A stretch of DNA of 64,000 nt. It comes from Euglena gracilis. Lineage: Eukaryota. Location: the NCBI GenBank assembly GCA_039621445.1, contig CP154954.1:10683521-10747520 (forward strand). The letters run 5' to 3'. This document shows positions 6,335 through 56,596 of the stretch, piece after piece. The notes below the pieces were generated by a model. It saw only the letters and a program-made list of their open reading frames with translations, was not told where the DNA came from and searched no databases. Positions within the stretch are counted from its first letter, which is position 1; every line of letters starts with the position of its first letter. Made by a program: the position numbers and the translations under genes.

Positions 6335-7175
6335 GTTTTCCCCTCTCGCCGGTTCGGTGACCGTGCGCGGAATGGGCTCCCCGGCAGGCCGAGTGGGGGA
6401 AAAACAGTCACCCGGCGCTCCGGTAAAAATAGGCACACGCGCCCCAAAAATTCCCTTTTTTTGTGTCTTTCGGTCCCTGAATTCAGCCAGAACCTGGGTT
6501 CCGGCAGCCAAATAATTCAAAAATTGGGGGGGGGAACGGTATTTTTGGCCAACTCCTTGGGGGTGCCTCTGAAGTAGTAGGGGGGGGGGAGGAAAAGCCT
6601 GGTTTGAATTTAAAAAAAGGGTAGCGGGGGGGACGGAAGAACACCTTCACCTTGATTTCCAGCGCCGCTTGCTCTTCCTTTTTTGAATTTGAATTCTTTC
6701 CTTTTGATTGACCTTCCGGATTGACTCTTTGAAATTCTTGAACAATTGTTTTCTTGAAATCAGATTGAATTTTTGATATTCCTTCCTTCAGCATGCACAA
6801 TTCTTTGAATGAAACATTCGGAAGAGAGAGAACCTGGGGGGGAAAAGTACACAGGTAAAAAAAGTAGCGGAATGGGGCAGAATGTTCGCTAATTCCAGTG
6901 CGCAGGGGGGTCGGCACGCCGTGGCGAGCCGTCCGGCTAGGGGGGGGGGGAGGGGGGTTTTTGGCGTGGCGAGGGGGTCCCGGATGGGGGGGGGGAGGGG
7001 TGCGCGGGGGTTTTCCAAGAAAATTTTCTTTGGCGCGGCTGACATGGCGTGGCGAGGGGGTCTGAAAAGGGGGGGAGGGGGGGGGTAAAATGGCGTGGCG
7101 AGGGGGTCGGTGAGGGGGGGGGGGGAGGGGTGTGCCGACCCCCCGCAGGCGCCAGGCCGCCTCCCGCCGCCCACA
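6335..7175 (-). repeat. E1 3' LTR (contains a MITE insertion)
   Basis: Near-identical to 17629-18228 once 6905-7147 is removed. Confidence 0.92.
6905..7144. mobile_element. 240-bp MITE in the E1 3' LTR
   Basis: TIR GGGGGGTCGGCAC / GTGCCGACCCCCC and 3-bp TSD GCA; the 5' LTR shows the empty site (GTGCGCAGGCGCC). Confidence 0.9.
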
Positions 7176-7186
7176 CTCCCCTTCCT
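7176..7186 (-). promoter_or_regulatory. E1 polypurine tract
   Basis: AGGAAGGGGAG directly before the TG of the 3' LTR on the minus strand. Confidence 0.8.
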
Positions 7187-7733
7187 ACCGAGGCACCCGG
7201 CCTCGCCTGCCATCGGCTAACCTCGGAGGCGGGAGCGGGGGGCGATGCGCACCTCATCGGCGTAGTAAACAAACTGTACAAACAAACATCGGGGCGGTTC
7301 GGGTATAAGGAGGGCAGGGGTGTGGCCTTGGCCTCGGCCTTGGCCTTTGGCGTTTGATGCCCGGGGGCGCCCCTCGTGTGTGGCGTCGCGCGCCACAGGA
7401 GCCTGGTCGGGGGCTGGCGTTGGTCCCCGGGCGGTCTGCTGGCAGGCCGGCCGCAGGCTCCTATGGGCGCCTTGGGTGGGGGTGGAACTCCTCCGGGCTC
7501 TGGGCGGGGGCCGCTGTCGTGCTGGGTGGCTTGGCAGCCGCGCCGCGCCGACCTGCAGGCTGGTGGCAGAGCCCGGAGCATTGAGCCTTTCGGGGGGGCT
7601 GTGCTCCCCGGCTGGTTGGGGGGGGGGGGGCGGTCCCTTGGGCTCCCTTGGGTCTTTCTGGTGCCTGGGGGGTCTCTTCGGCTCGCCTCCTTTGCCCCCT
7701 GCCTGGCCTGGCTGGCTGGGGGGGGGGGGGCGT

Positions 7734-9633
7734 GTTCTGGTGTCTTGTTAAATTTTCGGAACTTTCTTCCAAATCTTCCCCTTCAATCCCAATTGAGCGC
7801 GCACTGCAAGATGGCCATACTGAGTCAAAGAGTTCAGGTTTTTTGTCACCTGAACAAAATGTACAATTCTGGGGCCTTTGCCTGGGAAATTAGGAACAGA
7901 GAATCTTAATTCGTCTGGTTTCGTCTGCCAGCGCCCCCCCCGCCGCCAACACCCCCTTCCCTGACCGCTTGCGTACCGCCTTCGGCAATACACAACGGCG
8001 GGGGGATATTTTCAGGATTTTTTTTTTCAGGAGGGGGGGGCGGATTATTGTACACTGTACATAGGCCGGGTCAGGTTTCCTTAAACCTTTTTGGATGGCA
8101 GGGTGATCTTGGGGCCGATTTCACACCAGTCAAGTCAGATGGTAAAGGTGAAAAAGGTCACACTGGGGTGCATCCCTTCCAATGAGCCTCAACTAGGGCT
8201 CATAGTGAGCTGATCTAGGGGCATCATAGTGGGAGCCACATCCAATGCCAACCCTTGGCATCCACAACCTCCAAGCCTCAACTCCATCCAGGAAGGAGGG
8301 GCATTGAAAGGGGAGCCACCACCAGAATACATCATAGCATCCCAACCCAGCAAGCCTCAACTCAATTCAAGAAAATGAGGGGCATTGAGGGGGAGCCATC
8401 ACCAGACAAAACTGCAAATTGTGGTGAACCTGATGCCGACCAGGTACCAGTGGTGCACCGCATAGTTGGCACAAATTGCAACGATTTGTCCAGTGAACGT
8501 CGTCGGGAAGGAGGGGAGGGGGCCAGGGGTATCACACCAGGTGAACCACAACTGGGCTTGAAGGGCATCCCGAGGAGAAAAGGAGCCTCGATTACAAGCT
8601 GTGGGCAGCCCAGGCACCACACCCAATGACCTCAACCCAGCTCAACTCCAATCGAAATAGAGACGAGCTGCACGACGTTGTTGCCTTCTCCTGCAACTTT
8701 TTGTCTTTTTGAATGTCCCATCCAACTCTTGTGGTGTGTAACTTTTGCCTGGCTGCAAAAATTCTTTGTTATCATAATCACCTTGCACGTAATAAGCCCA
8801 CAAGCCCCATTTGGTTCCAGCACAAAACTGACCATCATCCAACTGAAACACTTTAGTCCCAGGTGGGTAAAAGTAGCTTCTGATGACAAAGTCTTGAATC
8901 ATCTTCCACCATTTTGTGCTTCTCCAATCTGGCAAAACCAAAATGGCTTCTGCCTTGTCTTCAATCACCTTCTTGATGGTCTTCTCCAGTGCACTGTAAG
9001 GGGGATTCATTCACAGAAGTCCAGTGCCTGGCCCCCAATTGGCCCCAAAGGCATCTGGAACTTCGCCCCCATTGCCAAACCATCTTGCCATCCTTTTGTT
9101 CTTGTCATCTGCAAAAACATCAATGTCTGGTCGTGGCAGTCGCAATCTCATCAAAATGTCTCTGACAATTCCTTCTCTTACTGCATATCTTTCAGACACC
9201 CACTGCCTGGGGCCTGATCCCTTGGAAGCTGCAGATGCAATTGAAATACCTTTTGAGATTGCCAAATCTGGCCCAGAATCTTCATCATCTGAATCTTCAG
9301 AATGTCTCCTTTTCTGGGTGCCACAGTCTTCCGGCCTTCCCTGACTTTTGGCCTCATGGCCACCTTGCAGTCTTTGGCCACTTTTCATGATATGTCAACT
9401 CTTTGAACTCTTTGTGTTCTGGTGTCTTGTTAAATTTTCGGAACTTTCTTCCAAATCTTCCCCTTCAATCCCAATTGAGCGCGCACTGCAAGATGGCCAT
9501 ACTGAGTCAAAGAGTTCAGGTTTTTTGTCACCTGAACAAAATGTACAATTCTGGGGCCTTTGCCTGGGAAATTAGGAACAGAGAATCTTAATTCGTCTGG
9601 TTTCGTCTGCCAGCGCCCCCCCCGCCGCCAACA
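7734..9633 (-). mobile_element. non-autonomous 1.9-kb mini LTR element (TRIM-like or deletion derivative) carrying an amino-MTase, nested in E1
   Basis: ~218-bp direct repeats at 7734-7951 and 9416-9633; TSD GGCG(T) at 7729-7733 / 9634-9638; PPT AGGGAAGGGGG at 7952-7962; no PBS and no gag/RT/INT seen. Confidence 0.85.
8642..9388 (-). pseudogene. phage-Dam/DIRS-MT-like DNA amino-methyltransferase with one in-frame TGA
   Basis: SERYAV...IDVFAD...DAFGANW...LL*MNPPY...AILVLPDWRSTKWW; the TGA at 9011-9013 replaces the conserved Trp of WxNPPY. Confidence 0.85.
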
Positions 9634-10084
9634 GGCGTGCCTTTCTCTCCCTTGCGCCTGCTCGGTTCTCTTGTGGCGCTCTGGGGGGGGGGTGCTCCTT
9701 GCGCCCTCTTCGGTTCTCCTTTGGCGCTCTGGGGCTCCGGTGGGTGTGCGCGCCTCTGGGGGGGGGGGGCGCTTTTTTTGTTGGGCGCCCCTGGGGGGGG
9801 CGCTTTTTTTTTGGGCGCCCCTGGGGGGGCGCTTTTTTTTTTCGGTCCGGGGGGGTCCGGGGGCGTTTTTTTTTTTTTTTTCCCTGGGGGTCCCCCTGGG
9901 GTCTTTTGTCTTGGTGTGTGGGGGGGTCTTTGGTCGTGCTCTCCGGGCCCCCTGGGGGGGGGGGGGCGGCCTGGGTTGGGGGGCTCTGGGCCCCCGGGGG
10001 GGGGGCGGTCTTGGGTTTGTGGCCTCTGGGCCCCGGGGGGGGGGGGGGGGGGCTTGGTTGCCTCTGGGGCCCCCTGGGGGGGGT

Positions 10085-10505
10085 CCTGGCTCGGTGGCCC
10101 TCTGGGGCCCCCTGGGGGGGGGCCTGGCTCGGTGGCCCTCTGGGGCCTCCTGGGGGGTCTTGGCTCGGTGGTCCTCTGGGGCCTCTCGGTGGCCCTCTGG
10201 GGCCTCTCGGTGGCCCTCTGGGGGGCCCTGGCTCGGTGGCCCTCTGGGGCCTCTCGCCTTGCTGGTGCCCCCTGGGGGGGCTTTGGCTGTTCGGTTCCCC
10301 CTGGGGGGGGTGGCTTCGGTTCCCCCTGGGGGGCCTGGCTGGCTTCGGTTCCCCCTGGGGGGGGGGTGGCTTCGGTTCCCCCTGGGGGGCCTGTCTGGCT
10401 TCGGTTCCCCCTGGGGGGGGGGTGGCTTCGGTTCCCCCTGGGGGGCCTGGCTGGCTTCGGTTCCCCCTGGGGGGGGGTGGCTTCGGTTCCCCCTGGGGGG
10501 CCTGG
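10085..10505. repeat. G-rich minisatellites in the E1 3' region
   Basis: CTCGGTGGCCCTCTGGGG units followed by GGCTTCGGTTCCCCCTGGGGGG units. Confidence 0.8.
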
Positions 10506-11635
10506 CTGGCTTGTTTGTGTGGCCTCCGCCCCCCGCTCTCTCCCGGCCGTTGTCTTCCCTTGGCCGGCTGGGGGGGGTCTGCTCTGCCCCTGGCTGCCGC
10601 CCGCCTCTGGCTTCCGGCCTTGGGCGCCAGCCTCCTCCTGCCTCCACAGTATCAGTGTCAGTGTGAAGGACAGGGGCAGAGACATCCGCTGCCATCCGTC
10701 GGCTCGCCTCCGACGGTGTAGTCTCCACGTACCCAGCCTCCGCCAGCGTCTTGGTCCACGGCGCAGCAGGCACTCTGGCGAATCGGCAGGCAAGGAACGG
10801 CAGCAGCAGCAGCAGCCCCACAAATACAACCCCCGCTACCCAGTACGGTTTGACGCCAGGCTTTTCCAACCACCCCCGGGGCGGTGGGCTGGCATGGGTA
10901 GCCGTGGGTAGGGGAAAATGGGTGGCCTCCGGGTTGGGGCCGGAAAGGGCCGGGACTCACCAGGCCTGCGTTGGGGGGATTGAGGACGCAGACACCGGCG
11001 GTGGTGCCCTCTCGCCGCCTTGAGGCTGAGGACGGGTCCTGGAGGTGCAACGGGAAGGAGCCATGGGTGGCGAAGGCTCCATCGGGACAGGGGATGAACG
11101 GGGCGCACTGGGTATGGGGGTGCGCTGGCAGGAAATGGTGTGAGAGGAACGGGGACGGCGTGGCACAGGCCGGCGGCATGGGGGGGTGCCGGCCCGTACA
11201 CACCGGGAAGGCCGCAGGCGGAGGGGGCACCGCGTCCCCGCCCGCAGCCGGGAAATGGTTCGGAATGGGCACATACGGAGAATGGGTGAACATCGCAGAG
11301 GCAGCCACAGCCGCCTGGGGGGCAGCCACAGCAGCCTGGGTGGCAGCCACCACCGTCGCCTGGGGGGCGGCCACAGCAGCCTGGGAGGCAGCCACAGCCG
11401 CCTGGGGGGCAGCGTGCGGCAGCAAATGAGCGAACGCAGACACGGGCTGCGCACACTCAGCTCCTGTCGATGGACACACCAAGGTTGATACCGCAGCAGA
11501 GGGGATCTGGGGATCAGCCTCCTGCGACAGCTGGGGAAACGCAGAGACGGAGGGACGGTCGGACGGGTGGCACGAAGTGCAGCGGGGCGGGCTGGCGCGC
11601 TGCAGCGGCGGCGAAGGCTCGCGGTCGATCCTGAC

Positions 11636-13200
11636 CTAGCGCTGGCGGTGGATCGCGTGTGTCGGGACGTGCTGTCCTGCAGGCACCGCTGTGCCCACTG
11701 GGGGGTCCGCTGACTCCCCTTCCTGGCTGCTTGCCTCCTCGTCCTTCTTGATGTCCTCGTCGGGCCAGACCCACTCCTCGGGGGGGTCTTCCCACTCGGC
11801 GTTATTGATGACCTCCTGCTCCTGCTTCTTCACCTCCGCGATGATGACCGCCACCTCAGCCGGGTTGCGGTGGAGGTAGTCCAGCAGGTCCACCTTGAGC
11901 TTCTTGGACTTGGCGTACTCGATCATCTGGTGAGAGTAGCGATGGAAGAAATTCTTCAACGGCTCCCACGTGAGAGTCGGGTGGCCCTCCCACTTCACCT
12001 CGAACTCCCAGTCGCCGTCGTCTCGTCGGCGGTGCCGCCGGATCTCCTCCACCGTCCACTCCTCGATGTCCACGTCTTCTTGCGGTCTGGCCTGCCGGTA
12101 GACGAACATCTTGGGCGGGCCCCACAGCCGCGTGTCATCGCGGTAGGCCTTCAGCTGGCAGCGGTGGGCCTCTTGGCGGCGGCCCTCCTCCAGCTCCAGC
12201 TCGTACGAGTGCTCGCCACGGCGCGCGGTGACCCGGGCTGGGCCAAGCCAGTAGCTCTCGAGCTTCTGGCCCGGCCGCCTCGGAGGCCGGAGGTACCACA
12301 CGAGGTCTCCCTTGGCGAACTCCTCGAGGTCCTTCCTGCTCCGGTTCTTCTGGTCCGCTTGCCGCTTGTGGAGGTCGTTGAGGACGTCGGCGACCTTCTG
12401 GTCCACGGCCTTCTGTCTCTCGAAGAACGACACGGCATCCTCCACCATGACCGGGGCCTTGTACGGTACGCCACCAGTCCACCGATGCCGTCCATACAGC
12501 ACCTCGTACGGACTCAGGCCGTGCTGCGCCTTGGAGTCGTTCAGCTTCTGCACTGCCCTGGGCAGGGACTCCACCCAGGTGATCGGGGCCTCGGCCTTCT
12601 CGCTCCGGATCCGCTTCTGCAGCTGCGCACCGAGGGACTCCGCCCGCCCGTTCGCCGCGTGGTGGTACGCCTGGGCATAGGCGTGGCGGATCCCGTGCAG
12701 GCCGCACATGCTGCGCCACCACGCGCCAGCAAAGTGCGGCCCGCGATCACTCGTGATCACGCTGGGCAGCCCGTGCGGCGACCACCACCCCGGTACATCG
12801 CCTTGGCCACGGTGGCGGCGGTGAGGCCGCGCGTGTGGTGGGCCGTGGCCACGACCCACCCACTGTGGCGATCGACGCAGGCGGCGAACACGTTGTACAG
12901 CTGCCCCTCGAAGTCCACCTCCGGCATCACGAAGAGGTCGATGGCCACCGACGCCATGATGTACGGCGGGACGGGCGTCGGGCAGACCTTCAGCCGCAGC
13001 GGCTGGTGCGGGTGCTCGGTGGCCTGGCACACCGGGCACGTCCGCTGCAGCCCGCCGGCCACCTTCGCCGCCTCCATCCGGTCCGCGAAGACGTAGGTGC
13101 GCTCGGCCTCCTCCACCAGCCGGTCCCCGCCAACGTGGCCGGAGAGACCGAGTGCTGCTCCCTCAGCACCTCCGCCAGCAGCCCGCTCGGCACACACCAC
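11636..13200 (-). pseudogene. pol: E1 integrase (HHCC plus DDE) and C-terminal chromodomain, frameshifted
   Basis: GHVGG...CPVCQ; VAIDLF; ITSDRGPHF; NGRAE; YWLGP; WTVEEIRRHR...FEVKWEGH..LTWEP at ~11950-12065. Confidence 0.93.
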
Positions 13201-14019
13201 CTCCCCGCCGAGACGAGCCGCCCATCCACCAGCTGGAACCCGCTGGGCCAGCCCGGGCCGTTGTGGGCCTGGTCCCAGACGGGCTTCCACCGCGGGCACA
13301 CCGCATACGCCTTGCTCCAGTCCATGTCGAAGACGTTGATGTCCAGGTCAGGCTGCGGGGGCACGGGATCAGCGGTTGACGGCACACCTGCTGCGGGCGC
13401 TGCAGACGGGACTGACGCGGCCGGTGACGGCACACCGGCTGCGGACGCTGGGACGGGCATGGCCGGTGATGACACACCGGGCTGTGGGCGCTGCGGACGT
13501 GCGATGGACTGCGGTGCGGTGGACTGCGGTGCTGGTGATGGGACTGGCGATGGCGCGTTGGATGATGGTGCTGGCACGGACGCTGGTGATGCGATGCACG
13601 ACGCAGACGGTGGGACTGCCGCAGACGATGCCGACGGTGGGACTGCTGCGGCCGCGGGAGACGAGGCTGACGGGTGCATCTCGCGTGGGTGCTCGGGCCG
13701 CATACGGTGCGGGGCGTCTCGGGGTGCGTCTCGGGCTGAGCACTGCGAGTCCGGGCGGCATCGCGTGATGACGGCGATGTGGGACGCTCGCGGGACCGCG
13801 GCGAACGACTCGAGCGGGATCAGCTGGATGACGTCCAGACCTCTAACCCCCTTCAGGGTGGACCTCTCCACCTGTTCCGCCTTGGTCTCCTCGTCCTCGG
13901 GATGCACCGCCTTCGGGGTGGACTTCTCGCGCAGCTTCTCCTCCAGGATGTGGGCCTTCATCTCCTTCGTGTCGGCCTCGGTGCCGTGCCACGAGGTGTC
14001 GCGCCAGCCTTGTGAGGCC

Positions 14020-15450
14020 GGGTAGGCCCAGCGGGACATGGCATCGCCCACCACGTTGGTCTCGCCGGGGACGTGCACCACGGTGATGCGGAACTCGTTG
14101 AGCTTCGCATGCCATCTGGCCCGCCTCCCCTGCGGGCCCACTCCGGCGACGTACTCCTTGTACCACGACTCCAGGCTGCGGTGGTCGGTCAGGACGAGGA
14201 TCTCGTTGTCCAGCAGGAAGCCCGCCCACTTGTCGAGGGCGGCCACCACGGCATACGTCTCCTTGTCCCGGACATCCCACCGAAGGCGCTGCCCCTCAGT
14301 GAGCTTCCGGGACATGAAGGCCACCGGGACGGAGGCCCCCGGCCGCAGGTCCTCCACCCGCGGCACGCCGTCGATGTTCGGGAACTGCTCCAGCACCGCT
14401 CCGATGGCGTAGTCCGACGCGTCGGTGCGCAGGACGAACGGCTTGGCTGGATCGATGTGGTACAGCTCCAGGTCGGCGACGAGGGCCTTCTTCAGCTTCT
14501 CGAACGCCTCCTTCTCCTGCTCCGTCCACACCACTGGGTGCTTGGATCCCGCCTTGGTCAGCTCCCTCGGCAACTTCAGCTTCTCCTGCAACGGCGCCGC
14601 CAGCTCCGCGTAGAGTCTCACGTAGCCCGCATAGTAATTGCAGACGCCGAGAAACGCGCGGAGACTGCTGACCGTCGGCGGCAGCTGCCAGTGCTGCACC
14701 GCCGACAGTTTGCCTGGGGCAGGCGCCCTCCTGCCGTGCCCCAGGACATGCCCCACGAACTCGACCTGCCTCATGAAGAGCTTGACCTTGCGGCTGTCGC
14801 TAACCCATCTGTCCTTCTCCAAGGCCAGCAACGTCTCACGGACGTCTCGGGCATGCTTCTGGTAGAACTCCTCGTCCGTCTCCTCCACTCCCTGCCGCGT
14901 AATGACGATGATGTCGTCGAAGTACGGGCGGGAGTGCGCCTTCACCGCCGCGCAGGTGGCGTCGATGTCCCGCTGCAGGAGGGCGGGCCCGACGTTGATC
15001 CCCTGCGGGACCACACGCCACTGCCACAGCCCACCCGGCAGCTGGACGTTCGTCACCGGTCGGCTCTCCTCCGCCAAGGCCACCTGGTGGAACGCGTCCC
15101 GCAAGTCGATGGTGCTGAAGAGGGTACACTTCGCCTGCTCCGCCACGATCTCCTCCGTCAAGGGCAAGGGGTAGCTGTCCGCCATGATCTGCAGGTTCGT
15201 CACCGCGTAGTCACACACCATCCTCCACTTCCCGTTCTTCTTCCGAATCGGGAAGGCCGCCGCCCGCCACGGGCCGCGGCCCGGCTCCACCTTCCGGTCG
15301 CGGCAGCACTCCTCCTCCATCTCCCGCAGCGCCTCCAGCCGCTCGCCCTTCAGGTGGATCACCCTCCCCACCACCGGCTGGGCGTTTGGCTTGAGACGCA
15401 GCACCGCCATCCCGTGCTGGCCTCGGGGCGGCGGATCGGGGTGGACGCGG
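14020..15450 (-). CDS. pol: E1 reverse transcriptase and RNase H (within ORF 12990-15545)
   Basis: KKNGKWRMVCDY, IDLRDAFHQ, PQG, PYFDD (14913-14924), LRTDASDYAIGAVL, TDHRSL, NVVGDAMSR. Confidence 0.95.
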
Positions 15451-15829
15451 TCGCAGAACGCTGCCCTCGAACTCCTTGAGCATCTCGGCGCGCAGCTGGA
15501 CGGCCAGCGGATGCTGCTCCTCCGCCTCGGCCGTGACCACCCCACGGACTTCCTTCGCCTCCTTGGCCGCGTCGATCAGCACCTTGGCCACCATTGCCTC
15601 CTCCTCGGCGTCCAGGGCCTCGTCCTCCTCGTCTCCGTCGGGGCCGTTGACCCCGACGGTGAGCCTCATCTTCCTCACCTCGGCCTCCATCTCCTCCTCC
15701 ACTTCGGACGGCGTGCGGGGCAACGGCGATGGGCTGCGGGCTCGGACGGTCGCGTGGGTGCGTGTGCTTAGCGCTGCGATCTCGCTTGCTTCGGTGCCGG
15801 CGATGACCCATCGGGGGTCGTCGTGGAGC

Positions 15830-17558: not shown

Positions 17559-17616
17559 TTCAAAAAGAAGGCACTCGAGAAAAATGGCCTTCAATGGAAA
17601 ACGTAGAACGAACAAG

Positions 17617-18720: not shown

Positions 18721-18764
18721 AGGGGAAACTGCCACCCATTTCTTTGAGCACAGAATTTTCAACC

Positions 18765-47282: not shown

Positions 47283-50200
47283 GGGAGCCCGAGGTCTGTG
47301 GGCACGGACCTCTGGGCTGATGAACAGACGGAAGTAGGACCTGATCAACCTTACTTTCCCTGCCTATCTGCCTTTTTGGTCGGTACCCGGAAAATTTTCG
47401 GGTCCCCCACCCCCCACTCCAAATTTCTGCCTGGAATGCTGAGCAAAGAAGGAACGGGATCCTGGAATAGTTGGAGAGACAACAATTTTACACCGGATCC
47501 TGCACTTTGCGTACCCCCCCATGGAACTTTTGGTCCAAGCGGAAATCGGAACACAAAATTTTTCTACCAAATGCAAAATTTTGGTCCACCCAGGGTGTCG
47601 AATCCCTCTTCTCTTTCGAACGGGATTAATTCCCTACTCCCTCTTGGTGAAAGCCAAGTACCCCATCAAAATTATGACTGCTGACAACAGCCCCATGTGT
47701 GGTGGTGACTTGGGATGCTTTTTGGACATACTCCTCCCCATCATCCCCAAGCACCACTCACAGCCCCCACACATACAAAATTTTCTGGGTACCTGGAGTT
47801 ACGAATCGGGTATCCGCGGGTCTGACGTAATTTTGGGTTTTCCATTCTTGCGTCAGAACCGCCTTGTTGTGGATTGTCCCTCCCTCGGTTTGCGCACTAC
47901 TTCACGCACACAACCCACACCACCGAATTTCTCCCCCATGACATCTCCCCAGATGTCCCCCCGCCTTGCCACAACGTTTTCTACAACCGAAAACACCGTG
48001 TCCTACCCTAGGGGTAAAGAGAAAGGTGCCCCCCTGCCACTACACTTTTAGTGCACGTTTCCCATGCGGTAGGGAAAGAGAGTAGCTTAACCCCCACGTT
48101 TCACTGGGTTTCAAGGCGAAAGCCCAAAGGCCTGAAGAAACTTCGGTGTCGAGTAGCCGCCCAGCTGCACAACGTTTACGTTTTCCACCAGGTGTGTCGA
48201 TTTCGGACACCCCTGTACACCTCCCAGCAGCTACAACCTCCAACACCCCCATACACACAGTACACATGACTGACATGCACTTCCAGACCGACACTTCCTA
48301 CCAATGCGCACATTGCCGGAGAATTTACACACAACCTGATTTCGACTGTGGATGTATTGTTGAACCTTCCAAACTAATCGCTTTACACAACAACCAGAGT
48401 ACACTTGTAACCGGAACCGGTACCGAGTTTACCCTGACCGCTGAACGAGAACACAACACACGGGTTTGTTACCCGTTGTGTGTTGAAGTACATCGACAAT
48501 TGGACAAATGCGGAATCACGTCCCTGTTCGGAATCGCGATAACCGCGCAGCAGGACCTCCAATGGCAGAAAGCCAATCTCTCTGACCCCGAACGGCAGAA
48601 TGCCAACCCCTCCAATGTCCCTGCATACAAGTGGCGGAATGCCAACAATAATTGTACTTCTTACAATACACCTGACATATTTCGTACAATGATTGATGAA
48701 GTGTCTTCGGACACACCGCATTACCAATGTGGCTCGGTAAACTGTGTTTCAGGCCTCCATAGGACTGAAACCGCGACAGTTTTCGCGAACCGCATCTTGA
48801 ATGCGTTCAATTTTGGACAATACCGCATTTTGGAAACTTGGTTTTCCAAAATCGCACAAATCGCCAAGTCGATGGACCTACAATTGGAGATTGACGCATT
48901 TTCGTCCAAAGCACATTCTCGTTTATCCAATTACTGGTCAAGCCCTACAAATGCGTCTGATAAGTTTTGGGGTGATGTGGTCCTGTGGCTACATCCACCT
49001 CTGAAACTTATCCCTCTTGTCGTTGACAAGATCCTTCGGGATCAAGCACGCGGTGTGCTACTGATTCCTATAAATCCCGAAGCAGAATGGTTCCAACAGC
49101 TGACGTATGTCACTTTTCAGTGGTGGGATTCACCGAATGACACCCCTTATCTGAAGATTTTTGTGGTGTCATGTTACCACCATTGAAAGAAAAATCATTT
49201 TTCGTGTTTGTTTCTTTGATGGATTCGGAACTGTTGACCACACTGACAAATTCATACGGGATAAAGGTCAGAGTGACCAAATATACCAAATATCCGCAGT
49301 GATAGAAAGCGGTGGTCAACATCCCAAATCACAAGAACTATGTAAAAAGATCAATCGCGAATTCAGTGGTGTTTTGGAACATCCTATCTATGCCCATGAC
49401 ATAGATCCTGCAATTCGCAGACCTTTTGGTGTCTGTAAAATCAAACTCAAAGAAGGTGCACAGCCCATGCACCGAAAATTATTTCGCTGTTCAGGCGAAA
49501 GAGAACAAGCTCTTAATACAATGATCGAAAAACTGATTGAACAAAAAACGGATCATACCCTCCAAAAGCGAGTGGACCTCACAAGCTTTTGTTGTACCCA
49601 AGCCTCCCGATGCTTCTGGAGAGAAGAATTGGAGACTTGTGCTGGATTACCGATACTTGAACTCACAGACAAAAGACGATCCATTTCCGTTACCACTTAT
49701 CGAAGACCTGATTACAAAACAAGCGGAAAACCGCCCCTGGTCGATTTTCGACTTAGAGGATGGTTTTCACCAGATGCACTTACACCCTGACTCACAACCA
49801 TACGCAAGCATTTGTAAAAATCCCGTGGAGTTTACCAATGGACGGTGTTACCAATGGGTGTTAAGAATGGCCCAGCCATGTTCCAAAGAATGATACAATG
49901 GATTTTACGAGACTTACCGTTTGCAATGGTATACATTGATGACGTGCTGATTTGCACACCTCCTCCACTTACAAATTCGGGTAGTGATATCCTTGATATT
50001 CACTACCGCGATATACGTTCCGTACTGACAACGTTTCAAAAACATTTGCTTTTCGTCAAAGGTGCGAAAATGCATTTGTTTCGCGAAACGATAAAATTTT
50101 GTGGACACATTCTTAACAACGGACAAAGGAGAGCGCAGTATTACGCGATTTACATGAAGGATTTCGCGAAAATCGCGGTACCACTGACACGACAACTCAA

Positions 50201-52411
50201 AAATCGCGCTGCTGACAATACAAAGATACAATGGGATGATACAATGCGAGAATCGCTAACGACAATTGAACAACTGATGTTGGACAACGTTGTACTTGAC
50301 ATTGCCGATCCGTACAAACCATACGTACTGGAGGTCGACAGCAGCGACTATGCTGTCGGCGGTGTGTTGAGTCAACAGAACTTGTCCAATGAACTGCGCC
50401 CTGTAGCATTCTTCAGCAGAAAGCTACAAGGTGAAGACGGAAAAGGACAGGTCAAATGGAGCATACGAGAAAAGGAGACGTATGCCATTGTCCTTATCCT
50501 ACAAAATTTCCGAAGTTGGGTCGCCAGTTCACACGTACAAATACTAGTGTTGACAGACCATGAGTCTCTCCAACACTGGTACACCGAAGACTTGAACAAA
50601 GCCATGTCCTCAGTTGGCCGAAGATGCCGCTGGCACGAATTTTTGAGTCAATTCAACCTGGCGGTAGTTTACACACCAGGTCATACTCAAAAAGTCGCAG
50701 ACCCACTTTCACGTGCACCCCGGCATTACCCTGGTAACCCTGACGATGTTGATGCCACGTTCCACGGAAGTCGCGAAGCCGACGAATACGCAAGGCGCGC
50801 AGACGCCGCTGACAACCTACTTGACAATTTTCCTGTCTCGCGGATTTGGCGGCGGATGCCGATAGCCCCCGTACGGAGAAAACGACAACGCGGCAGAATG
50901 CCGGGCCCCCGCCGGGTCACGCGATCCGAATCCCCATCCCCTCTCTTCTTTCGAGAATGGGATTATTCCAAGGATGATTTCTACAATGATGTCTTACAAA
51001 GATTGCGTAATGGTGAATTGGTTGAGAATTATACCTTATCGCCTGTACGTTTGATTTTTCGGAATGATACCGGTTACAAGTACTGCATACCCTGTGACTC
51101 GGTTGATGACGTACTTTTATGTTATCACAACCAAGGTCACCCTGGGGCCCCCAAACTTCTTTCTTTGGTGGGTCGCAGGTACTGTACAACCCTGACCGAA
51201 AAAGATTTGTACAAGCGCTGTTTTCAAATTTCGCAACGATGCCAAATTTGTCAAGCTGTAAAACCGCGCAGAGGTACCCCCCCTGGTACGATGGACTTCT
51301 TTCCCGTACCACCAGACATTTTTACATCCCTCTGCATGGATTTTCTGGAGCTTGAACCTTGCAAAGGAACGGATGACAAAATTTACGATTACGTTCTTGT
51401 TGTCGTCTGTCGGCTGAGTGGGTACATTGTAGCCATTCCATGCCAGAAAGCAGGGTTGACAGCACAAGTTTTGGGACAAATGTTTTTAGAAACATGCATT
51501 TGCCTCATGGGTTACCGAATGAAATCGTGAGTGATCAAGACCATTTGATTTCTTCTCGATTTTTTACAACTCTTTGCGGTTTACTCGGAATAGAGAAGCA
51601 TTTTTCTATCATTCATCGTCCAAAAGGCAATGGTCGCGCTGAAGCGGCAGTGAAAGCTGTATTCATCATGCTACGACTTTCACTGGCCGAATCTCACAAC
51701 GCCTGGCTACAAGTATTACCCTGGTGTTTATTTTACATTAACACTTTACTGGGGTTGATACTACAATACTCACCGTACAAGATCGTCTTCGGACGTGATC
51801 CCCCAGCCATTGGCGACATCCCGTCAGAACGACCTGCTCGTTCCAGCGTGAGTTGCGAAACATGGTTCACTGAAGTAGAAACATTGTGCACGGATGTGCA
51901 AAAGCGCGTAGTCGCCATACACTTGCAAAAACAAAGACAACTCTTACAAGCTTACAAATCACCGATATACAACCCAGGTGACCGCGTGTGCGTTCGGAAC
52001 ACTAGAACCCGCATGCAATCCACGAAGTTGGACCACCTCTGGATTGGACCATGTGAGATCCTCGATCGGTTGGGTATAAGTGGGCGCTAGAAAGTCGCTT
52101 TACCCAACGGTGTCGAGGATGTGCACATGGATGACTTCAAACCATACCTGAAACCACCAAACGGTAAAGCAATACCCTGCCTCTACTTCAAACCACGGTC
52201 AAAACTGCCTGAGACAGATGATTTTGTCGTTGACAAAATCCTCGACCACAAAGTAGACAGACGTGTACATTACTGGAAAGTACGGTGGAAAGGATATGGT
52301 CCCGAAGAGGACACTTGGGAACCAGCAACTAGTTTTGTTGGTTACATCCAACAAGACTGGAAGCTATTGAACAAACAAAAAAACATTGACATTTCTGTAA
52401 ATACCTTCTAA
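47283..52411 (+). pseudogene. pol: E4 pol: PR, amino-MTase, RT, RH, INT and chromodomain, disrupted
   Basis: DVILGFPFL; FDLEDGFHQM; VYIDD; VDSSDYAVG; HPG...[23 protein letters not shown]...[16 protein letters not shown]. Confidence 0.92.
48810..49150 (+). CDS. Dam-like amino-MTase domain of E4 with the variant catalytic motif WLHPPL
   Basis: IDAFSS...NYWS..TNA...W...LWLHPPL (48986-49003)...GVLLIP..PEAEWF. Confidence 0.78.
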
Positions 52412-52427
52412 GGGAGGATATACAAAG

Positions 52428-55400
52428 ATGTCCAAGATTTTGTCCATAGCATGGACTTTTGACTTTGTTCATTGCAAGAACTTCGGTTCATTTGCAATGC
52501 CCGCCAGCCAATCACACTACTTGCCACATCCAAAGCTACAATACGGATGGGAATCGTCCCTTGACGCGCTGAAGACAATTTTCGACAATATCCGAGAAAT
52601 CGGACCACAAGGCATACAATGGGAAGTATTCCCACTTCCAAAGGATATACAACTGGTGACACACGAAATGTTCTGTTACAACTACCAAATTTTCCTCAAC
52701 GAACACTACGGCCCCCACTTCCAAGTGGTCGGAATCGACCTGACATACCCACAAAAATTCGTGCTTTGGTGCACCCACTGCCACCACAAGTTCCCCGTGG
52801 ACTTCTGGGGCTTTGGTGTGCGCGGTCGGACAACCGACCGCCCAAACGCCCCACCAACGCGAATGGGCGGAGGCCCAGCAACAACGAAGACTACTTGGAC
52901 ACATCTGCCACAATCCCCTCGAAGTCAGGGAAATCGGACACGCCAGACGAAACCACCGACAAATGCTTCTGCACATGCAGACATTCCAATGGAGAGCATG
53001 GGTGTCCTATGCTCTGGAAATCTACCATTTATTCAACCCAAAACAACAACTCCCACAAGAATACCTTCCTCTTCGACCCGAATGGGACGAAGACGGAAAA
53101 CGGAAGTACATCAAACGCCTGTTTGGCGAAACCCTCCGAAGAGAGGACTTTGCCCCATTTTTCAAGGGCAAACGTACAAATAAGGATGGGTTCGCCATCC
53201 CAATACTGTACTGGCTTCCTCGCGGATCGGGAGGAAACAAATTTGTCGGATGGCAAAACTTCCGTCTGCGACCACGTATAAAACTCCCTGAACCTCAGCC
53301 GGCGCAGTCCGAAGCAGCGCAGTCTGCAGTTGAACAACCTCCAACGGCGGCATCATCTACAACGTCAATATCCAAAGCAGCAGCGAAGCCTGCAACCAAA
53401 CGTTCGGAAGAACGTTTGCCACAACCTCCACCTACACCTACAATGTCTGTGGAACACACTCCCGTACACTCTTCAGACTCTTCGTCCGTTTCCTCTTCCG
53501 GGTCATCCAGTGATGAGGAAATGGAAAAAGGGACAGACAATGAACACAGTACACGCTCCGTCTCCTCCGCATCTGTGGAGTCTGAACCCGACGATGCCGG
53601 CGTACAACATGCTCTAAGGGCCGAAGTGCCAGCTACAACGCCTGCTCAAACACGGCCACAAACACCATTGCCAAACGCGGAACCTGACGCGCCTGCAGAA
53701 TTTACAATGGCCGAAGTGCCTGCAGACTCCACAACGGCCGCAGCGCCTTCGGCAGACGTGGTTCCACCTACTTCCCGCACATGCGGAAGCTGGACAGGAA
53801 GTAACTGATGCTGAGATAATCGCATTTCGCGAACTAATCACAAGACAACAACAGGAAGGTATCGACAGATACCAAGACCCAGACGATTTTATATTCATAC
53901 CTCCACAAGTTGGACGCGCTGCAGAACGCATCCTCGGAAGCGTCCGAAGTCGCGTAGCCTCGATGGTTGCAATGGTGCGATCGAGGTCTTCTTCTTCTTC
54001 AACGCGAAGTCCCTGTTACTCGGGACTTGGCGAGAAACCAACACAAGAAGTTACGGCTTCCACCACAGCCCTGGCAGCAGACGCGTCCAGCTCTACTCCT
54101 GATGTCCAAACACACGAAGTGGTGACAACAACCGAATCGACTACGGTCGAACAAACGCCACCACATGACACAACACCCGTAGTGGTACACACACCTGAAC
54201 AGGTGGTACCGACGGCTCCTGACGTACCACCTACCACCACACCAACGGTCAAACATGCTCCAAAGTCGCCTGCAGAACGCCCCCTTCCGCCACAGCGGAA
54301 AGAGAAAGGCAATAAGCCTAAGGCTAAACCACAGCCTACAGAACCGTGCAAACCTGCTGAACGACACAACGAACCAAAACCACCTCCACCTGGGAGTGGT
54401 AGCAAATCAGGAAAGCGGGCGAAGACCCCAGCTGCTACCACACCGGCACCAACATATACCGAAGCGGCCGGGAAAAGCCGGGTCACTTCTACCCTCCGAG
54501 GTAGAACTCGACAAGATACAACGTCTGAGACCTCGCAAGAGGAAAACATGCCGGTTGACGATATTGCCACCCTTTGGCAAGAGGACATTATCTCCAACCT
54601 GCCGAGCGTCGAAGAACGCATTGCCATGATACAATCAGCCCGCGAACGCGTAATGTTGTTGAACAAGTGGATTGAACCATTGTTTTTCAACGAACAAAAG
54701 TACAACTACTATGTTCGTCATATTTGGCGATTCTACAATGCCAGTTCACCAAGAGTGTTTGCCCAATACCTTGGGGAAACATTCCTGTTGGACAATAGGC
54801 CGAATGGTCAAACAACGTGGCTCTGTACTGTTTGTCACAACATTCATAACAGCATGCCAGCTGTGCATGTCTGTTATGCGGACAACAAAAGGAAAATTTT
54901 TCACCACAACGAATTCGTTCCAAATACAGCCGCTTTGATTTGCGGTGATTGCATCCTTGCCTGGAGAAAACTGAACAACTTCCGGTGGTCGGAAGAGGAC
55001 AGAGACCGTGACGTACCAGTTTTCTGTGTCAACTGCCTACGGGCAGACATATATTTGCCCGCAGATGGCGAAAGTCTCAAGATCGAACCCGGAAGCGAGG
55101 ACGTTCTGGAAGATTTCCTCAATTTCTACAAAACAAAACGACAAATGTACCAACACAAAAGCTTCAAGAAAGCTGAGGCTTTTGACCACGGCGGAATCGC
55201 CTTTGACTTCCAAACTGATTCCGGCGGAATCAGACTTGCTGTGGAATGTACAAAAGCGCGATTGCCCTTACTCTTCAATGATGACGACTGGAAACGAGTC
55301 ATATACCCACTCTTTACAAAGCCTTCAACGGTTTCGGAAACCACACAACGATGGTTATTGCCTGACTATCCACCTGAACGACATGGTTACGAACATTATT

Positions 55401-55784
55401 CAGAATGGTTTGGAACCATTCTGAAACCACACATAACCCGCTGTGCCTGTGCATCCCGCGCGCATAACGTTGATTTCAACGCTCTGCCTGGGATGCCACC
55501 ACAGGTACCAGCAAACCGTCCAAGATGGAACTATTACATATGGCCTATGGCCTGCAACTGATCCGAGAGTTTTCTGGGAAAATTTGCAGATGTACCTCCA
55601 CAAGCGAGCTGAAATGCTCAAAACCGAACTGCCCAAGGAAATACAAGAACTCAAAAGTTGGGTTATCCCACGGATCAACATGGACGATCCTGACAAGGAT
55701 ACCTTAGACTTACGTCCAACTGAAATGAACTTGGTACAAGACCCACACATGGGTGAGTACTTCAAGGAAACCCACAAACGTTGA
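52428..55784 (+). pseudogene. E4 extra ORF3 region between pol and the 3' LTR, function unknown, Cys-rich
   Basis: Chain of sense ORFs (251, 331, 532 and 113 aa) with CxxC motifs (CTHC, CTVC, CGDC, CVNC) and a Pro/Thr/Ser-rich middle. Confidence 0.6.
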
Positions 55785-56167
55785 GGGTTTCCTGCCTCGT
55801 ATAATCAGCTACGGCTGAAATAGGCGTAGTCCAACATAATGAGCGAAGTCTCGAGCGTGAATACGCACGTCATCATCGCGTTCAACACCGTTTCAAGACA
55901 CAATGGCGGAATCGCCTTAAGTTTGGTGGATAACACGTTGATCGCGAAGATTCAAGACCACAAAGACACTACGGTGTCAAGTAAGAAGACACACGAAGCA
56001 CAGCATGCGCGCCAGAATTCTTTTGTGCTTTGTGCTCCAAACACGGTACCGTAATTGGGAACCAGACCATGGTATCCTGGTACTGTCTCCCTGAACCTGG
56101 GACTGTGCCTGGCATCCCGACTGGCCTGGTCCAGAAGGGAAATCGGGGAGAGCCCTGGGAGGGGGAT

Positions 56168-56596
56168 GTGTACCAGGCAGCCATTCTGCCATGGCACTGT
56201 GTACCAGATACAATGGGCTACGGCCTACAAGCTGGCTACGGCCGGGATGTAGACAGTGGCATGGTTAAATCATAAGACAAAGAGAGAATCTCAGAGCTAG
56301 CAAAAGCTTAGCGAAAGCAACTGGTTCCTAATTCAAGGTTATTGGGTTTGGTGCTTTGCAATTCTCTTTTAGAATTCTGAGGGCGAAGTCCCATTTGAAT
56401 ACAAGTTTTATTTCTTTCTTTTCCAAAGCTCGAAAGAGCAAAAGTCACTTTCATATAAGGGACTGCGGTCCCACCAATTCTTCTGCTCTTGTGCTTTGCA
56501 TTCAAAAGGGGAAAAGGGAAGCAAATTTTGTTGTTACTCCCCCCACGGACGTTTCAGGAGGAAATCGTAAGTAGAAAAGCCAGGGTGGGACGTACA
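56168..56596 (+). repeat. E4 3' LTR, with PPT GGGAGGGGGA at 56158-56167
   Basis: TGTGTACC...GACGTACA; the same termini as the E5 LTR. Confidence 0.8.

What the first reader, a model, noticed from the sequence alone, without database searches (positions are those of the whole stretch)
6335..56596. Chromodomain-integrase Ty3/gypsy retrotransposons carrying DNA methyltransferases of two unrelated classes
Seen: five LTR elements carry a DNA MTase. E1 and E3 have a C5-cytosine type (PC/ENP motifs); E2, E4 and the mini element have an amino type (xPP motif after an IDxFA/S SAM motif). In E1-E4 it lies in the pol region, and E1, E2 and E4 end in a chromodomain. Known: Dam-like MT domains are typical of tyrosine-recombinase DIRS1-like elements, and C5-DNMT-bearing retrotransposons have been reported in Symbiodinium and Klebsormidium. 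I know of no DDE-integrase gypsy lineage using both classes. Inference: the MTase is packaged in the particle with RT and marks the new cDNA, for example to mimic or evade host epigenetic control, or acts with chromodomain targeting.
Basis: partly seen in the sequence, partly recalled or inferred. Interest (0 to 1): 0.95.

Follow-up and report, generated by a model that had tools for sequence, protein, structure and literature searches.

The report
Gypsy retrotransposons carrying DNA methyltransferase domains
Five nested, decayed gypsy-type retrotransposon copies each carry a DNA methyltransferase domain of the cytosine or the adenine kind, which is real but matches element families described in a 2026 preprint.

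Summary
A six-frame scan with family profiles finds five methyltransferase (MTase) loci in the window, each inside an LTR element.

- **C5-cytosine type:** E1 and E3 carry a compact domain of about 195 aa. The model has pLDDT 89, and its Foldseek top hits are all DNMT3, DNMT1, MET1 or DIM2.
- **Dam-like adenine type:** E2, E4 and a 1.9-kb mini element carry this domain. The model has pLDDT 90, and its best viral matches are phage DNA N6-adenine MTases.
- **Not separate insertions:** the domains lie in frame with protease and RT.
- **Chromodomains:** E1, E2 and E4 end in one.

All five copies are damaged:
- E1 lacks the SAM-binding motif I.
- E3 has stops and has lost the PC and ENP motifs.
- E4 reads HPPL instead of NPPF.
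- The mini copy has TGA in place of Trp.
- E2's Dam motifs are intact, but its pol is frameshifted.

An RT tree puts E1, E3 and E4 in one clade of 66 rows. In that clade 60 rows carry a DNMT, a Dam or both. E2 belongs to a separate all-Dam clade.

A May 2026 bioRxiv preprint (10.64898/2026.05.21.726589) already reports DAM-LTRs and dual "EpiLTRs". So this is a new member of a known kind. The possible additions are the DNMT-only arrangement and the Dam-only mini element.

The parts
6335..18228 (-). E1: GC-rich chromovirus-like LTR element, order DNMT-PR-RT-RH-IN-chromodomain, with at least two frameshifts in pol. LTRs at 6335-6906 and 17626-18202, plus 26 extra bases to 18228. TSD GGCCA at 6330-6334 and 18229-18233. 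Inserted in a 186-bp satellite.
16519..17103 (-). E1 compact C5-cytosine MTase domain. Motif IV (SPPC), motif VI (ENP) and the KPTR motif are kept. Motif I (FxGxG) is absent. No in-frame ATG lies upstream.
16027..16173 (-). E1 aspartic protease, in the same open frame as the DNMT domain.
   Evidence: weak, E 0.005; conserved in relatives
14091..15248 (-). E1 reverse transcriptase and RNase H.
11915..12058 (-). E1 chromodomain (24.1 bits; cut-off 25.1).
7733..9633 (-). Mini LTR element nested in E1. LTRs 7733-7951 and 9415-9633 (100% identical, TG..CA). TSD GGCG at 7729-7732 and 9634-9637. Polypurine tract AGGGAAGGGGG. Its only ORF is a stand-alone Dam-like protein.
8654..9208 (-). Mini-element Dam-like domain, IDVFA ... 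LL*MNPPY. TGA at 9011-9013 stands where relatives have Trp. The N-terminal ~100 aa of intact relatives (P0282-P0284) is missing.
23992..31045 (+). E2: chromovirus-like LTR element inserted into E3, order gag?-PR-Dam-RT-RH-IN-chromodomain. TSD ATCCT at 23987-23991 and 31046-31050. Pol is split into four overlapping frames.
26100..26732 (+). E2 Dam-like adenine MTase domain with IDLFA and LWANPPF intact. It lies inside the 1261-aa ORF 24618-28403, between PR (25746-26000) and RT (27525-27980).
30177..30281 (+). E2 chromodomain (24.8 bits; cut-off 25.1).
31051..34187 (-). E3, 5' part: degenerate element with order PR (33883-34140), DNMT, then RT-RH (31188-32811). No LTR found.
33063..33680 (-). 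E3 C5-MTase pseudogene with stops and frameshifts. Motif I reads FSCRGS, motif IV reads RC, motif VI reads ETL.
22341..23986 (-). E3, 3' part (integrase and beyond), separated from the rest by the E2 insertion.
36925..56581 (+). E4: 19.7 kb between LTRs 36925-37344 and 56161-56581 (95.5% identical). Contents in order: 5-kb purine-rich leader; gag from 43358; PR about 47527-47874; Dam; RT-RH 49272-50801; IN; chromodomain; then 3.7 kb of unexplained 3' sequence. TSD unresolved.
48788..49156 (+). E4 Dam-like domain, decayed. It reads IDAFS ... LWLHPPL, where its nearest relative P0222 has LWMNPPF. The C-terminal part is cut by a stop or frameshift.
52223..52330 (+). E4 chromodomain (42.4 bits, above the cut-off). 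One stop codon separates it from the integrase frame.
59410..64000 (+). Partial sixth element of the E4 family (69.6% nucleotide identity over 2.6 kb). It has gag with a CCHC knuckle and PR. The window ends before its expected Dam region.

Best explanation
The window is a pile-up of Ty3/gypsy chromovirus-like LTR retrotransposons. They belong to lineages that have built DNA methyltransferase modules into their polyprotein.

- E1 and E3 carry a compact C5-cytosine MTase. E1 has it before the protease and E3 has it after.
- E2 and E4 carry a DIRS/phage-type Dam-like adenine MTase between protease and RT.
- A 1.9-kb non-autonomous LTR element carries only a stand-alone Dam ORF.
- E1, E3 and E4 belong to one RT clade in which nearly all members carry one or both MTases, in many domain orders. 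E2 belongs to a second, independent Dam-bearing clade.

These match the DAM-LTR and EpiLTR kind of element described in the 2026 preprint.

Inferred mechanism, not shown here:
1. The MTase is translated with Pol.
2. It travels in the virus-like particle.
3. It methylates the reverse-transcribed DNA or the RNA-DNA intermediate.
4. The new copy then enters chromatin carrying a mark that suits the element: 6mA to look like active host chromatin, or 5mC together with chromodomain targeting.

The five copies in this window are relics. Only E2 keeps an intact catalytic motif set, and its pol is frameshifted.
For: Shown here:
- **Loci:** five MTase loci, all inside LTR elements.
- **Reading frames:** DNMT and PR share one open frame in E1. 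PR, Dam and RT share one 1261-aa frame in E2.
- **Insertion marks:** TSDs for E1, E2 and the mini element.
- **C5 domain, sequence:** 1866 representative proteins at E<=0.001 in the 1.84-billion library. A profile of 30 members hits DNMT1 in the PDB at E 1.3e-4. Five of 10 relatives scanned reach Pfam's PF00145 cut-off.
- **C5 domain, fold:** model pLDDT 89.1; 148 PDB matches at E<=0.001; every listed top row is a DNA C5-MTase.
- **Dam domain:** model pLDDT 90.4. PDB neighbours are N6-adenine MTases, PCIF1 and KsgA (7 at E<=0.001). Against viral models there are 29 matches at E<=0.001, and 7 of the top 10 are named phage methyltransferases, mostly DNA N6-adenine MTases.
- **Same architectures elsewhere:** 13 PR-Dam-RT-IN-chromodomain proteins, and DNMT-PR-RT-RH-IN-chromodomain in P0017.
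- **RT tree of 87 rows:** a clade of 66 rows (SH-aLRT 99) splits into DNMT 25, both 19, Dam 16 and none 6. A sister clade of 15 rows has none. The E2 clade has 6 of 6 with Dam.

From the literature:
- The preprint reports DAM-LTRs, EpiLTRs and 6mA enrichment on DAM-LTR insertions.
- Retrotransposon DNMTs methylate CG de novo (PMC5890265, abstract).
Against: - No copy in the window is intact, so nothing here can be active as it stands.
- E1 lacks motif I. E3, E4 and the mini copy have lost catalytic residues or carry stops.
- No window copy reaches Pfam's curated cut-off for either MTase family.
- The preprint reports that eukaryotic Dam domains expressed in E. coli gave no 6mA, so catalysis on DNA is unproven.
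- The nearest solved structures to the Dam model are RNA adenine MTases, with TM only about 0.45.
- The MTase labels on the RT tree rest on gene calls that may be truncated. The tree is a quick LG+G4 search with SH-aLRT support only.
- Transcription is not shown. The RNA-library contigs that hold E2-family sequence may derive from DNA.
Confidence: 0.85

Rival explanations
1. The Dam-like domain methylates RNA, or the RNA strand of the replication intermediate (m6A), rather than DNA. For example, it could mark the element's genomic RNA for packaging, stability or evasion of host sensing.
For: The closest solved structures to the E2 model are RNA N6-adenine MTases: PCIF1/CAPAM cap-adenosine MTase and KsgA/Dim1/Erm. 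Giant-virus PCIF1-like proteins also appear among the viral matches. The preprint saw no 6mA on E. coli DNA after expressing eukaryotic Dam domains, and itself raises an RNA-DNA hybrid substrate.
Against: The best viral fold matches are phage DNA N6-adenine MTases, at lower E-values than the PCIF1-like hits. The only Pfam family hit is the phage DNA Dam family PF05869. The preprint reports more 6mA on DAM-LTR insertions in three species.
Confidence: 0.15
2. The MTase domains are kept as non-catalytic modules, for nucleic-acid or SAM binding, as a polyprotein spacer, or to recruit host AMT1 or DNMT. Any methylation on the elements would then be laid down by host enzymes.
For: The preprint's heterologous assay was negative, and it suggests recruitment of host AMT1. 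E1 keeps a long open frame through a DNMT domain that lacks motif I.
Against: Catalytic residues are the most conserved columns across relatives. In 53 aligned DNMT sequences the invariant columns include the Cys and Ser of the PC motif (PCTEYS) and the Glu and Pro of ENP. Of 57 Dam domain hits, 47 keep NPP followed by F, W, Y or C. Retrotransposon DNMTs of other lineages methylate CG de novo (PMC5890265 abstract). E1's loss of motif I fits simple decay, since its pol is also frameshifted.
Confidence: 0.12
3. The MTase segments are unrelated nested insertions or assembly chimeras, not part of the retrotransposons.
For: The window is heavily nested: E2 lies in E3 and the mini element lies in E1. 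The preprint warns of chimeric or nested artefacts in one lineage.
Against: - The domains are in frame with PR and RT, with no internal repeats or TSDs around them.
- The same orders recur in dozens of independent database polyproteins.
- E1 has a sister copy that is 94-96% identical at the protein level.
- Contigs of several runs cover the PR-Dam-RT stretch of E2.
Confidence: 0.02

Closest known systems
DAM-LTRs and EpiLTRs (Fernandez-Moreno et al., bioRxiv 10.64898/2026.05.21.726589, May 2026)
   Same: These are Ty3/gypsy or chromovirus-like LTR elements with a DDE integrase and a Dam-like domain derived from DIRS elements, often with a chromodomain. Some lineages also carry a C5 DNMT. Domain orders vary and domains are exchanged between RT lineages. 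One relative in E1's RT clade carries a source name that points to a Euglena transcriptome, and Euglena is the lineage where the preprint reports mixed Dam/DNMT elements.
   Different: - No element in this window carries both MTases.
- E1 and E3 are DNMT-only, with the DNMT before or just after the protease. The preprint describes a DNMT at the 3' end of pol in Cymbomonas and a 'structurally distinct' order in Euglena. Its supplementary figures were not available to me.
- The preprint searched from Dam, so DNMT-only members (25 of 66 rows) would have been missed.
- The Dam-only mini LTR element is not mentioned. Searches of the preprint text for non-autonomous, stand-alone and DNMT-only found nothing.
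KnitGypsy-Dnmt3 of Klebsormidium nitens (de Mendoza et al. 2018, PMC5890265)
   Same: A Gypsy LTR retrotransposon with a C5 DNMT inside the Pol polyprotein, catalytic residues conserved and under purifying selection.
   Different: That DNMT is a Dnmt3-type domain of normal size. Here the domain is compact, about 195 aa with no obvious target-recognition domain, and its DNMT class was not resolved. The preprint places EpiLTR DNMTs sister to DNMT4; I did not test this.
DIRS1-group retrotransposons with a methyltransferase (MT) domain
   Same: They have the same Dam-like domain type (DLFA ... NPPF), which hits PF05869. According to the preprint they are the source of the Dam domain.
   Different: DIRS elements use a tyrosine recombinase and split or inverted repeats. 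The elements here have direct LTRs, TSDs and an rve DDE integrase. No ORF scanned gave a tyrosine-recombinase hit.
SymbioLINE-Dnmt and SymbioDIRS-Dnmt3 of Symbiodinium (PMC5890265)
   Same: Retroelements that encode a C5 DNMT and are proposed to methylate their own cDNA.
   Different: They have LINE and DIRS backbones, not LTR/DDE elements with a chromodomain.

Membership tests
Ty3/gypsy chromovirus | Direct LTRs flanked by a short target-site duplication | tested here: met
   E1 GGCCA, E2 ATCCT, mini GGCG. E4's TSD is unresolved. No LTRs were found for E3.
Ty3/gypsy chromovirus | Pol order PR-RT-RNaseH-IN with a DDE (rve) integrase | tested here: met
   Pfam RVT_1, RT_RNaseH and rve occur in this order in E1, E2 and E4. 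The rve score is just below the cut-off in E2 (32.1 against 32.6) and weak in E1 (20.1). Relatives P0164 and P0222 score 39.9 and 30.6.
Ty3/gypsy chromovirus | Chromodomain at the C-terminus of integrase | tested here: met
   E4 scores 42.4 bits, above the 25.1 cut-off. E1 at 24.1 and E2 at 24.8 fall just below it.
C5 DNA methyltransferase (Pfam PF00145) | Score at or above the curated Pfam cut-off | tested here: not met
   The E1 domain scores 13.9 bits against a cut-off of 22. Five of 10 relatives scanned reach it, at 22.9-29.1 bits.
C5 DNA methyltransferase (Pfam PF00145) | Motif I (FxGxG, SAM binding) | tested here: not met
   Motif I is absent from E1 and degenerate in E3 (FSCRGS). The family consensus has LDLFSGTGS.
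C5 DNA methyltransferase (Pfam PF00145) | Motif IV (PC, catalytic Cys) and motif VI (ENV) | tested here: met
   E1 has SPPC and ENP 42 residues apart. Both motifs contain invariant columns in the alignment of 53 relatives. E3 has lost both.
C5 DNA methyltransferase (Pfam PF00145) | C5-MTase fold | tested here: met
   The model has pLDDT 89.1. Foldseek gives 148 PDB matches at E<=0.001, and all listed top rows are DNMT3A/B/C, DNMT1, MET1 or DIM2, with TM 0.43-0.57.
Dam-like adenine MTase (Pfam PF05869; DIRS MT domain) | Score at or above the curated Pfam cut-off | tested here: not met
   Window copies score 17.6-21.9 bits against a cut-off of 28.1. Relatives P0282-P0284 and P0222 score 37.8-44.7 bits.
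Dam-like adenine MTase (Pfam PF05869; DIRS MT domain) | D-x-F-A/S motif followed by the catalytic NPP[FYW] motif | tested here: met
   E2 has IDLFA and NPPF intact. The mini copy has IDVFA and NPPY, with a TGA two codons before the motif. E4 has IDAFS but HPPL. Only E2 meets this feature fully.
Dam-like adenine MTase (Pfam PF05869; DIRS MT domain) | Fold like phage DNA N6-adenine MTases | tested here: met
   The model has pLDDT 90.4. Seven of the top 10 viral matches are named phage methyltransferases, mostly DNA N6-adenine MTases, at E 1e-7 to 5e-6. PDB neighbours are RNA adenine MTases at TM about 0.45.
EpiLTR (preprint definition: Dam + DNMT + chromodomain in one LTR element) | Both MTase classes in the same element | tested here: not met
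   No window element has both. No Dam was found upstream of E3's protease, even though 8 of 12 rows in its RT subclade are dual. Nineteen database relatives in the clade do carry both.
DIRS retrotransposons | Tyrosine recombinase instead of a DDE integrase | tested here: not met
   Pfam scans of the element ORFs gave rve and Integrase_H2C2 and no phage-integrase family.
Dnmt3-type retrotransposon DNMT (KnitGypsy-Dnmt3) | DNMT domain branches with Dnmt3 | tested here: inconclusive
   The best Foldseek hits are DNMT3, but the best profile hits are DNMT1. No reference DNMT set was at hand to build a tree.

The most novel reading that the evidence does not exclude
Inside one chromovirus RT clade the MTase modules are near-obligatory cargo (60 of 66 rows) that is shuffled freely between positions. 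This clade has spawned a lineage of about 1.9-kb LTR-bounded, non-autonomous elements whose only gene is a stand-alone Dam protein of about 300 aa. That protein is kept open and catalytically intact across relatives that are 51-55% identical. The result would be an 'epigenetic-only' parasite of a parasite: it borrows Gag-Pol in trans and keeps the methyltransferase for itself. If so, the MTase benefits the element copy that encodes it (acting in cis, or on its own cDNA) and is not a general polyprotein function.
Probability: 0.25. Interest if true: 0.6.

Novelty: new member of a known kind. Interest (0 to 1): 0.4.

Why it matters
Retrotransposons that carry their own DNA-modifying enzymes show mobile elements writing, not just suffering, epigenetic marks.

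This window independently confirms from raw sequence what a 2026 preprint reports: DDE-integrase chromoviruses carry Dam-like MTases, C5 MTases or both. It adds three things.
- Two unrelated Dam-bearing RT lineages and a DNMT-bearing lineage sit within 50 kb of one genome.
- DNMT-only members place the DNMT at the very start of the polyprotein.
- A tiny LTR element is reduced to a Dam gene.

These give concrete test objects for whether the enzymes act on the element's own cDNA. Because the main point is already in print, the surprise for a specialist is moderate.

Tried and rejected
- **Whole-genome search:** not possible, because no genome is held for this window.
- **phmmer of the E1 domain alone against the PDB:** found nothing at E<=10. 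A profile of relatives was needed.
- **PPC...ENV pair in the partial sixth element (62886-63010):** considered as a third C5 domain and rejected. It gives no hit to the DNMT profile or to Pfam, and the conserved part of that ORF is protease.
- **Dam domain upstream of E3's protease:** searched for because most of E3's RT relatives are dual. None was found at permissive thresholds.
- **E3 LTRs:** not found.
- **E4 TSD:** not resolved.
- **E4 ORF 53618-55561:** no Pfam hit. The Atlas gave only a lead at 0.88 to DUF6570, which I do not rely on.
- **Atlas search with stand-alone Dam protein P0282:** no usable hit.
- **Earlier notes of this scan:** none on this genome or topic.
- **Expression:** one metatranscriptome run (X20) holds E2-family contigs in 26 of 30 bins, and runs guessed to be RNA hold more. 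The tool states that DNA may be present in such libraries, so I do not count this as transcription.
- **Copy number:** depth figures of DNA run X1 are summed over contigs and give no copy number. I report only that 13,306 contig pieces were laid.
- **DNMT class assignment (DNMT1, 3, 4, 5 or 6):** could not be done without reference sequences.
- **dN/dS:** could not be computed, because only protein relatives and no further DNA copies were available.

Full report
**Anatomy**

The window is eukaryotic repeat-rich DNA with nested LTR retrotransposons. Self-comparison gives four LTR pairs:
- 6332-6906 with 17626-18202, 99.1% identical (E1).
- 7732-7951 with 9414-9633, 100% identical (mini).
- 23992-24182 with 30856-31046, 97.9% identical (E2).
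- 36925-37344 with 56161-56581, 95.5% identical (E4).

A sixth, partial element at 59410-64000 is 69.6% identical to E4's gag-PR region over 2.6 kb.

E1 sits in a 186-bp satellite. The monomer breaks after GGCCA at 6334 and resumes with GGCCA at 18229, which is a 5-bp target-site duplication (TSD). E2 has TG..CA ends and the TSD ATCCT. The mini element has TG..CA ends, the 4-bp TSD GGCG and a polypurine tract in front of its 3' LTR. E4's TSD could not be resolved.

E3 has no detectable LTRs. The E2 insertion splits it: its integrase lies at 22529-23491, and its PR, DNMT and RT lie at 34140-31188. After E1's 5' LTR comes TGGTAGCAGAGG. From memory this resembles an initiator-tRNA-Met primer-binding site; I did not test that.

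**Backbone**

Pfam finds PR, RVT_1, RT_RNaseH, rve or Integrase_H2C2, and Chromo in gypsy order in E1, E2 and E4. E4's chromodomain scores 42.4 bits. Those of E1 (24.1) and E2 (24.8) lie just under the 25.1 cut-off. No tyrosine recombinase was hit, so these are DDE-integrase, chromovirus-like elements and not DIRS.

**C5-type domain**

The E1 frame 15958-17277 (minus strand) holds a ~195-aa segment with SPPC and ENP 42 residues apart, and the protease follows in the same frame.
- On its own it only grazes Pfam DNA_methylase (E 0.036) and hits nothing in the PDB by phmmer.
- An exhaustive HMMER search finds 1866 representative proteins at E<=0.001, of which 902 are at <=1e-10.
- Their consensus shows the C5 motifs in order: LDLFSGTGS, SVD, ASPPCTEYS, ENP, DYCQF..KPTR and YRIP.
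- A profile of 30 members hits DNMT1 catalytic domains at E 1.3e-4.
- Eight of 10 relatives scanned hit PF00145, and 5 of the 10 reach the curated cut-off.
- The AlphaFold model of the E1 segment (53-row alignment, pLDDT 89.1) gives 148 PDB matches at E<=0.001. Every listed top row is DNMT3A/B/C, DNMT1, MET1 or DIM2.

So the fold and family are C5 DNA MTase, in an unusually short form.

The E1 copy has no motif I, only a Pro/Val-rich stretch where relatives have LDLFSGTGS, and no upstream ATG. E3's copy is 25% identical to E1's (E 1.7e-11). It is a pseudogene with stops and frameshifts, and it reads RC for PC and ETL for ENP.

The domain order differs between the two. E1 is DNMT-PR-RT and E3 is PR-DNMT-RT.

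**Dam-type domain**

E2's 1261-aa frame has PR at residues 377-461, a Dam-like stretch at 525-590 and RT at 970-1121. E4 and the mini element also hit PF05869. All three hits are sub-threshold (E 1.6e-4, 3.3e-3, 8.3e-4).
- Thirteen database polyproteins match E2's PR-to-RT spacer at E down to 5.5e-109. Their precomputed Pfam lists combine Dam with RT, rve and Chromo.
- The model of E2's domain (pLDDT 90.4) is nearest to N6-adenine MTases in the PDB: PCIF1 and KsgA/Dim1/Erm, with 7 matches at E<=0.001 and TM about 0.45.
- Against viral models there are 29 matches at E<=0.001. Seven of the top 10 are named phage methyltransferases, mostly DNA N6-adenine MTases.

Motif state of the three copies:
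- E2 has IDLFA and LWANPPF intact.
- E4 reads IDAFS and LWLHPPL, where its nearest relative P0222 has LWMNPPF, and its C-terminal part is cut.
- The mini copy reads IDVFA ... LL(TGA)MNPPY, and the TGA stands where relatives have Trp.

A six-frame scan with both local profiles finds these five loci and no others. The profiles include window rows, so scores for the window's own copies are inflated.

**Are the domains part of the elements?**

Yes. They share open frames with PR and RT, they have no flanking repeats of their own, and the same orders recur in many independent proteins.

**Lineages**

Relatives of E1's RT were fetched with the 'longer' length setting. That search found 261 proteins at E<=0.001, of which the best 120 were listed. 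I scanned all stored proteins with the local profiles.

I then built a tree from 87 RT rows:
- the first 73 of the 120 listed proteins;
- 10 proteins from earlier searches;
- 4 window elements, with E3 and E4 represented by their longest tblastn stretch and stops written as X.

The tree was a quick LG+G4 search with SH-aLRT support only. Its main results:
- E1, E3 and E4 fall in one clade of 66 rows (support 99). That clade splits into DNMT only 25, both 19, Dam only 16 and neither 6.
- Its sister clade of 15 ordinary chromoviruses has none.
- E2 falls in a separate clade of 6 rows, all with Dam (support 100).
- The labels need at least 22 changes on the tree, against a shuffled mean of 48.6.
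- Positions differ widely: DNMT first, Dam then DNMT, DNMT then Dam, and either domain after RNase H.

A caveat applies: truncated gene calls can turn 'both' into 'one'.

A Dam-domain tree of 57 rows splits into two types at support 99. Type A (E2's type) occurs in both RT clades, which points to domain exchange between lineages.

E1 has a sister copy, P0164, that is 94-96% identical at the protein level. Its pol frame runs on through the low-complexity region after the chromodomain.

**The mini element**

The mini element is 1.9 kb and its only ORF is a Dam protein. Three database proteins of 293-324 aa, on contigs of 1.35-1.8 kb, are 44-60% identical to it and 51-55% identical to each other over their full length.
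- They start with Met, keep LMWMNPPY and end in the same basic tail.
- They pass Pfam's Dam cut-off at 37.8-44.7 bits.
- In the Dam tree they form a group with the window copy (support 100), nested among Dam domains of dual elements.

The window copy lacks their N-terminal ~100 aa and has the TGA, yet its LTRs are identical. So a defective copy was mobilised recently, presumably in trans.

**State of the copies**

None is intact. E1 has at least two frameshifts and no motif I. E2's pol is split over four frames. E3 is heavily decayed. E4 has several breaks. Whatever these families do, these copies are relics.

**Abundance and RNA**

E2-family sequence is abundant and diverse in a DNA run of the coded organism A. 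In that run 13,306 contig pieces were laid: 5487 at >=99% likeness, 5054 at 95-99% and 2765 at 90-95%. One metatranscriptome run holds pieces in 26 of 30 bins. The tool warns that such libraries can hold DNA, so transcription is not shown.

**Mechanism**

What is shown is that the MTase domains are encoded within the polyprotein next to PR and RT, and that their catalytic columns are the conserved ones across relatives.

What is inferred is the rest of the model: co-packaging with RT, and methylation of the cDNA or the RNA-DNA intermediate before or at integration. In that model 6mA mimics the host's permissive mark, and 5mC acts together with chromodomain targeting.

This is the model of the two papers. 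The preprint supports it with more 6mA on DAM-LTR insertions. Its own E. coli assay, which found no 6mA, weakens it.

The rivals are an RNA or hybrid substrate, which the RNA-MTase structural neighbours suggest, and a non-catalytic or recruiting role.

**Comparison with what is known, and novelty**

I read the abstract, Results and Discussion of the preprint 10.64898/2026.05.21.726589; its supplements were closed. It reports:
- Dam domains in non-DIRS LTR elements, with and without chromodomains;
- EpiLTRs with Dam, DNMT and a chromodomain in Cymbomonas and Euglena.

PMC5890265 (abstract and two Results sections read) reports a Gypsy element with Dnmt3. Four literature searches found no other paper on the subject.

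Three things may go beyond the preprint's main text:
- DNMT-only chromoviruses of the same RT clade, with the DNMT at the start of the polyprotein.
- The Dam-only mini LTR element. The words non-autonomous, stand-alone and DNMT-only do not occur in the preprint, and it treats orphan Dams as degenerate remnants.
- Two independent Dam-bearing RT lineages in one locus.

I rate this a new member of a known kind, of moderate interest.

Noticed in passing
not in the window: proteins P0225-P0252: More distant RT relatives of E1 (37% identity or less) are chromoviruses whose precomputed Pfam lists include a SET domain (PF00856). That would make them chromoviruses carrying a histone methyltransferase module.
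   Followed up: no
not in the window: protein P0219: A record that NCBI names as a Genlisea aurea (land plant) hypothetical protein carries Dam plus the compact DNMT by my local profiles. It sits inside the MTase-bearing RT clade. It could be a contaminant or a transfer.
   Followed up: partly
window 37345-42345: Between E4's 5' LTR and its gag lies 5 kb of non-repetitive, purine-rich DNA (A 0.34-0.45, A+G about 0.65 on the plus strand). Its ORFs give no Pfam hit. Its origin is unexplained.
   Followed up: partly
window 52412-56160, ORF 53618-55561 (+): A 647-aa open frame lies after E4's chromodomain, with a Ser/Thr/Pro-rich first half and a Cys/His-rich second half. It gives no Pfam hit. The Atlas offers only a weak lead to DUF6570 at 0.88. 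It could be an accessory gene or a fragment of another element.
   Followed up: partly
window 5508-6334 and 18229-18705: A 186-bp satellite array is the insertion target of E1. It shows that E1 is a single clean insertion.
   Followed up: yes
window 1584-1873, 3699-3999, 4736-5357: Three tandem arrays lie left of the elements: a 19-bp unit x15, a 10-bp unit GGCCCGGCTC x30, and a 309-bp unit x2.
   Followed up: no
window 9638-11636 (-): E1's region after the chromodomain is GC-rich, with 21- to 56-bp tandem repeats. In sister copy P0164 the pol frame stays open through it, as a low-complexity Ala/Pro/Gln-rich tail.
   Followed up: partly
relatives P0167, P0169, P0016; window 17104-17625: In E1's subfamily the called polyprotein starts directly with the DNMT domain. 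E1 has only about 510 nt between its primer-binding site and the DNMT, so there is no room for a gag there. Only P0017 has 626 aa upstream of its DNMT. Where these elements get Gag is open.
   Followed up: partly
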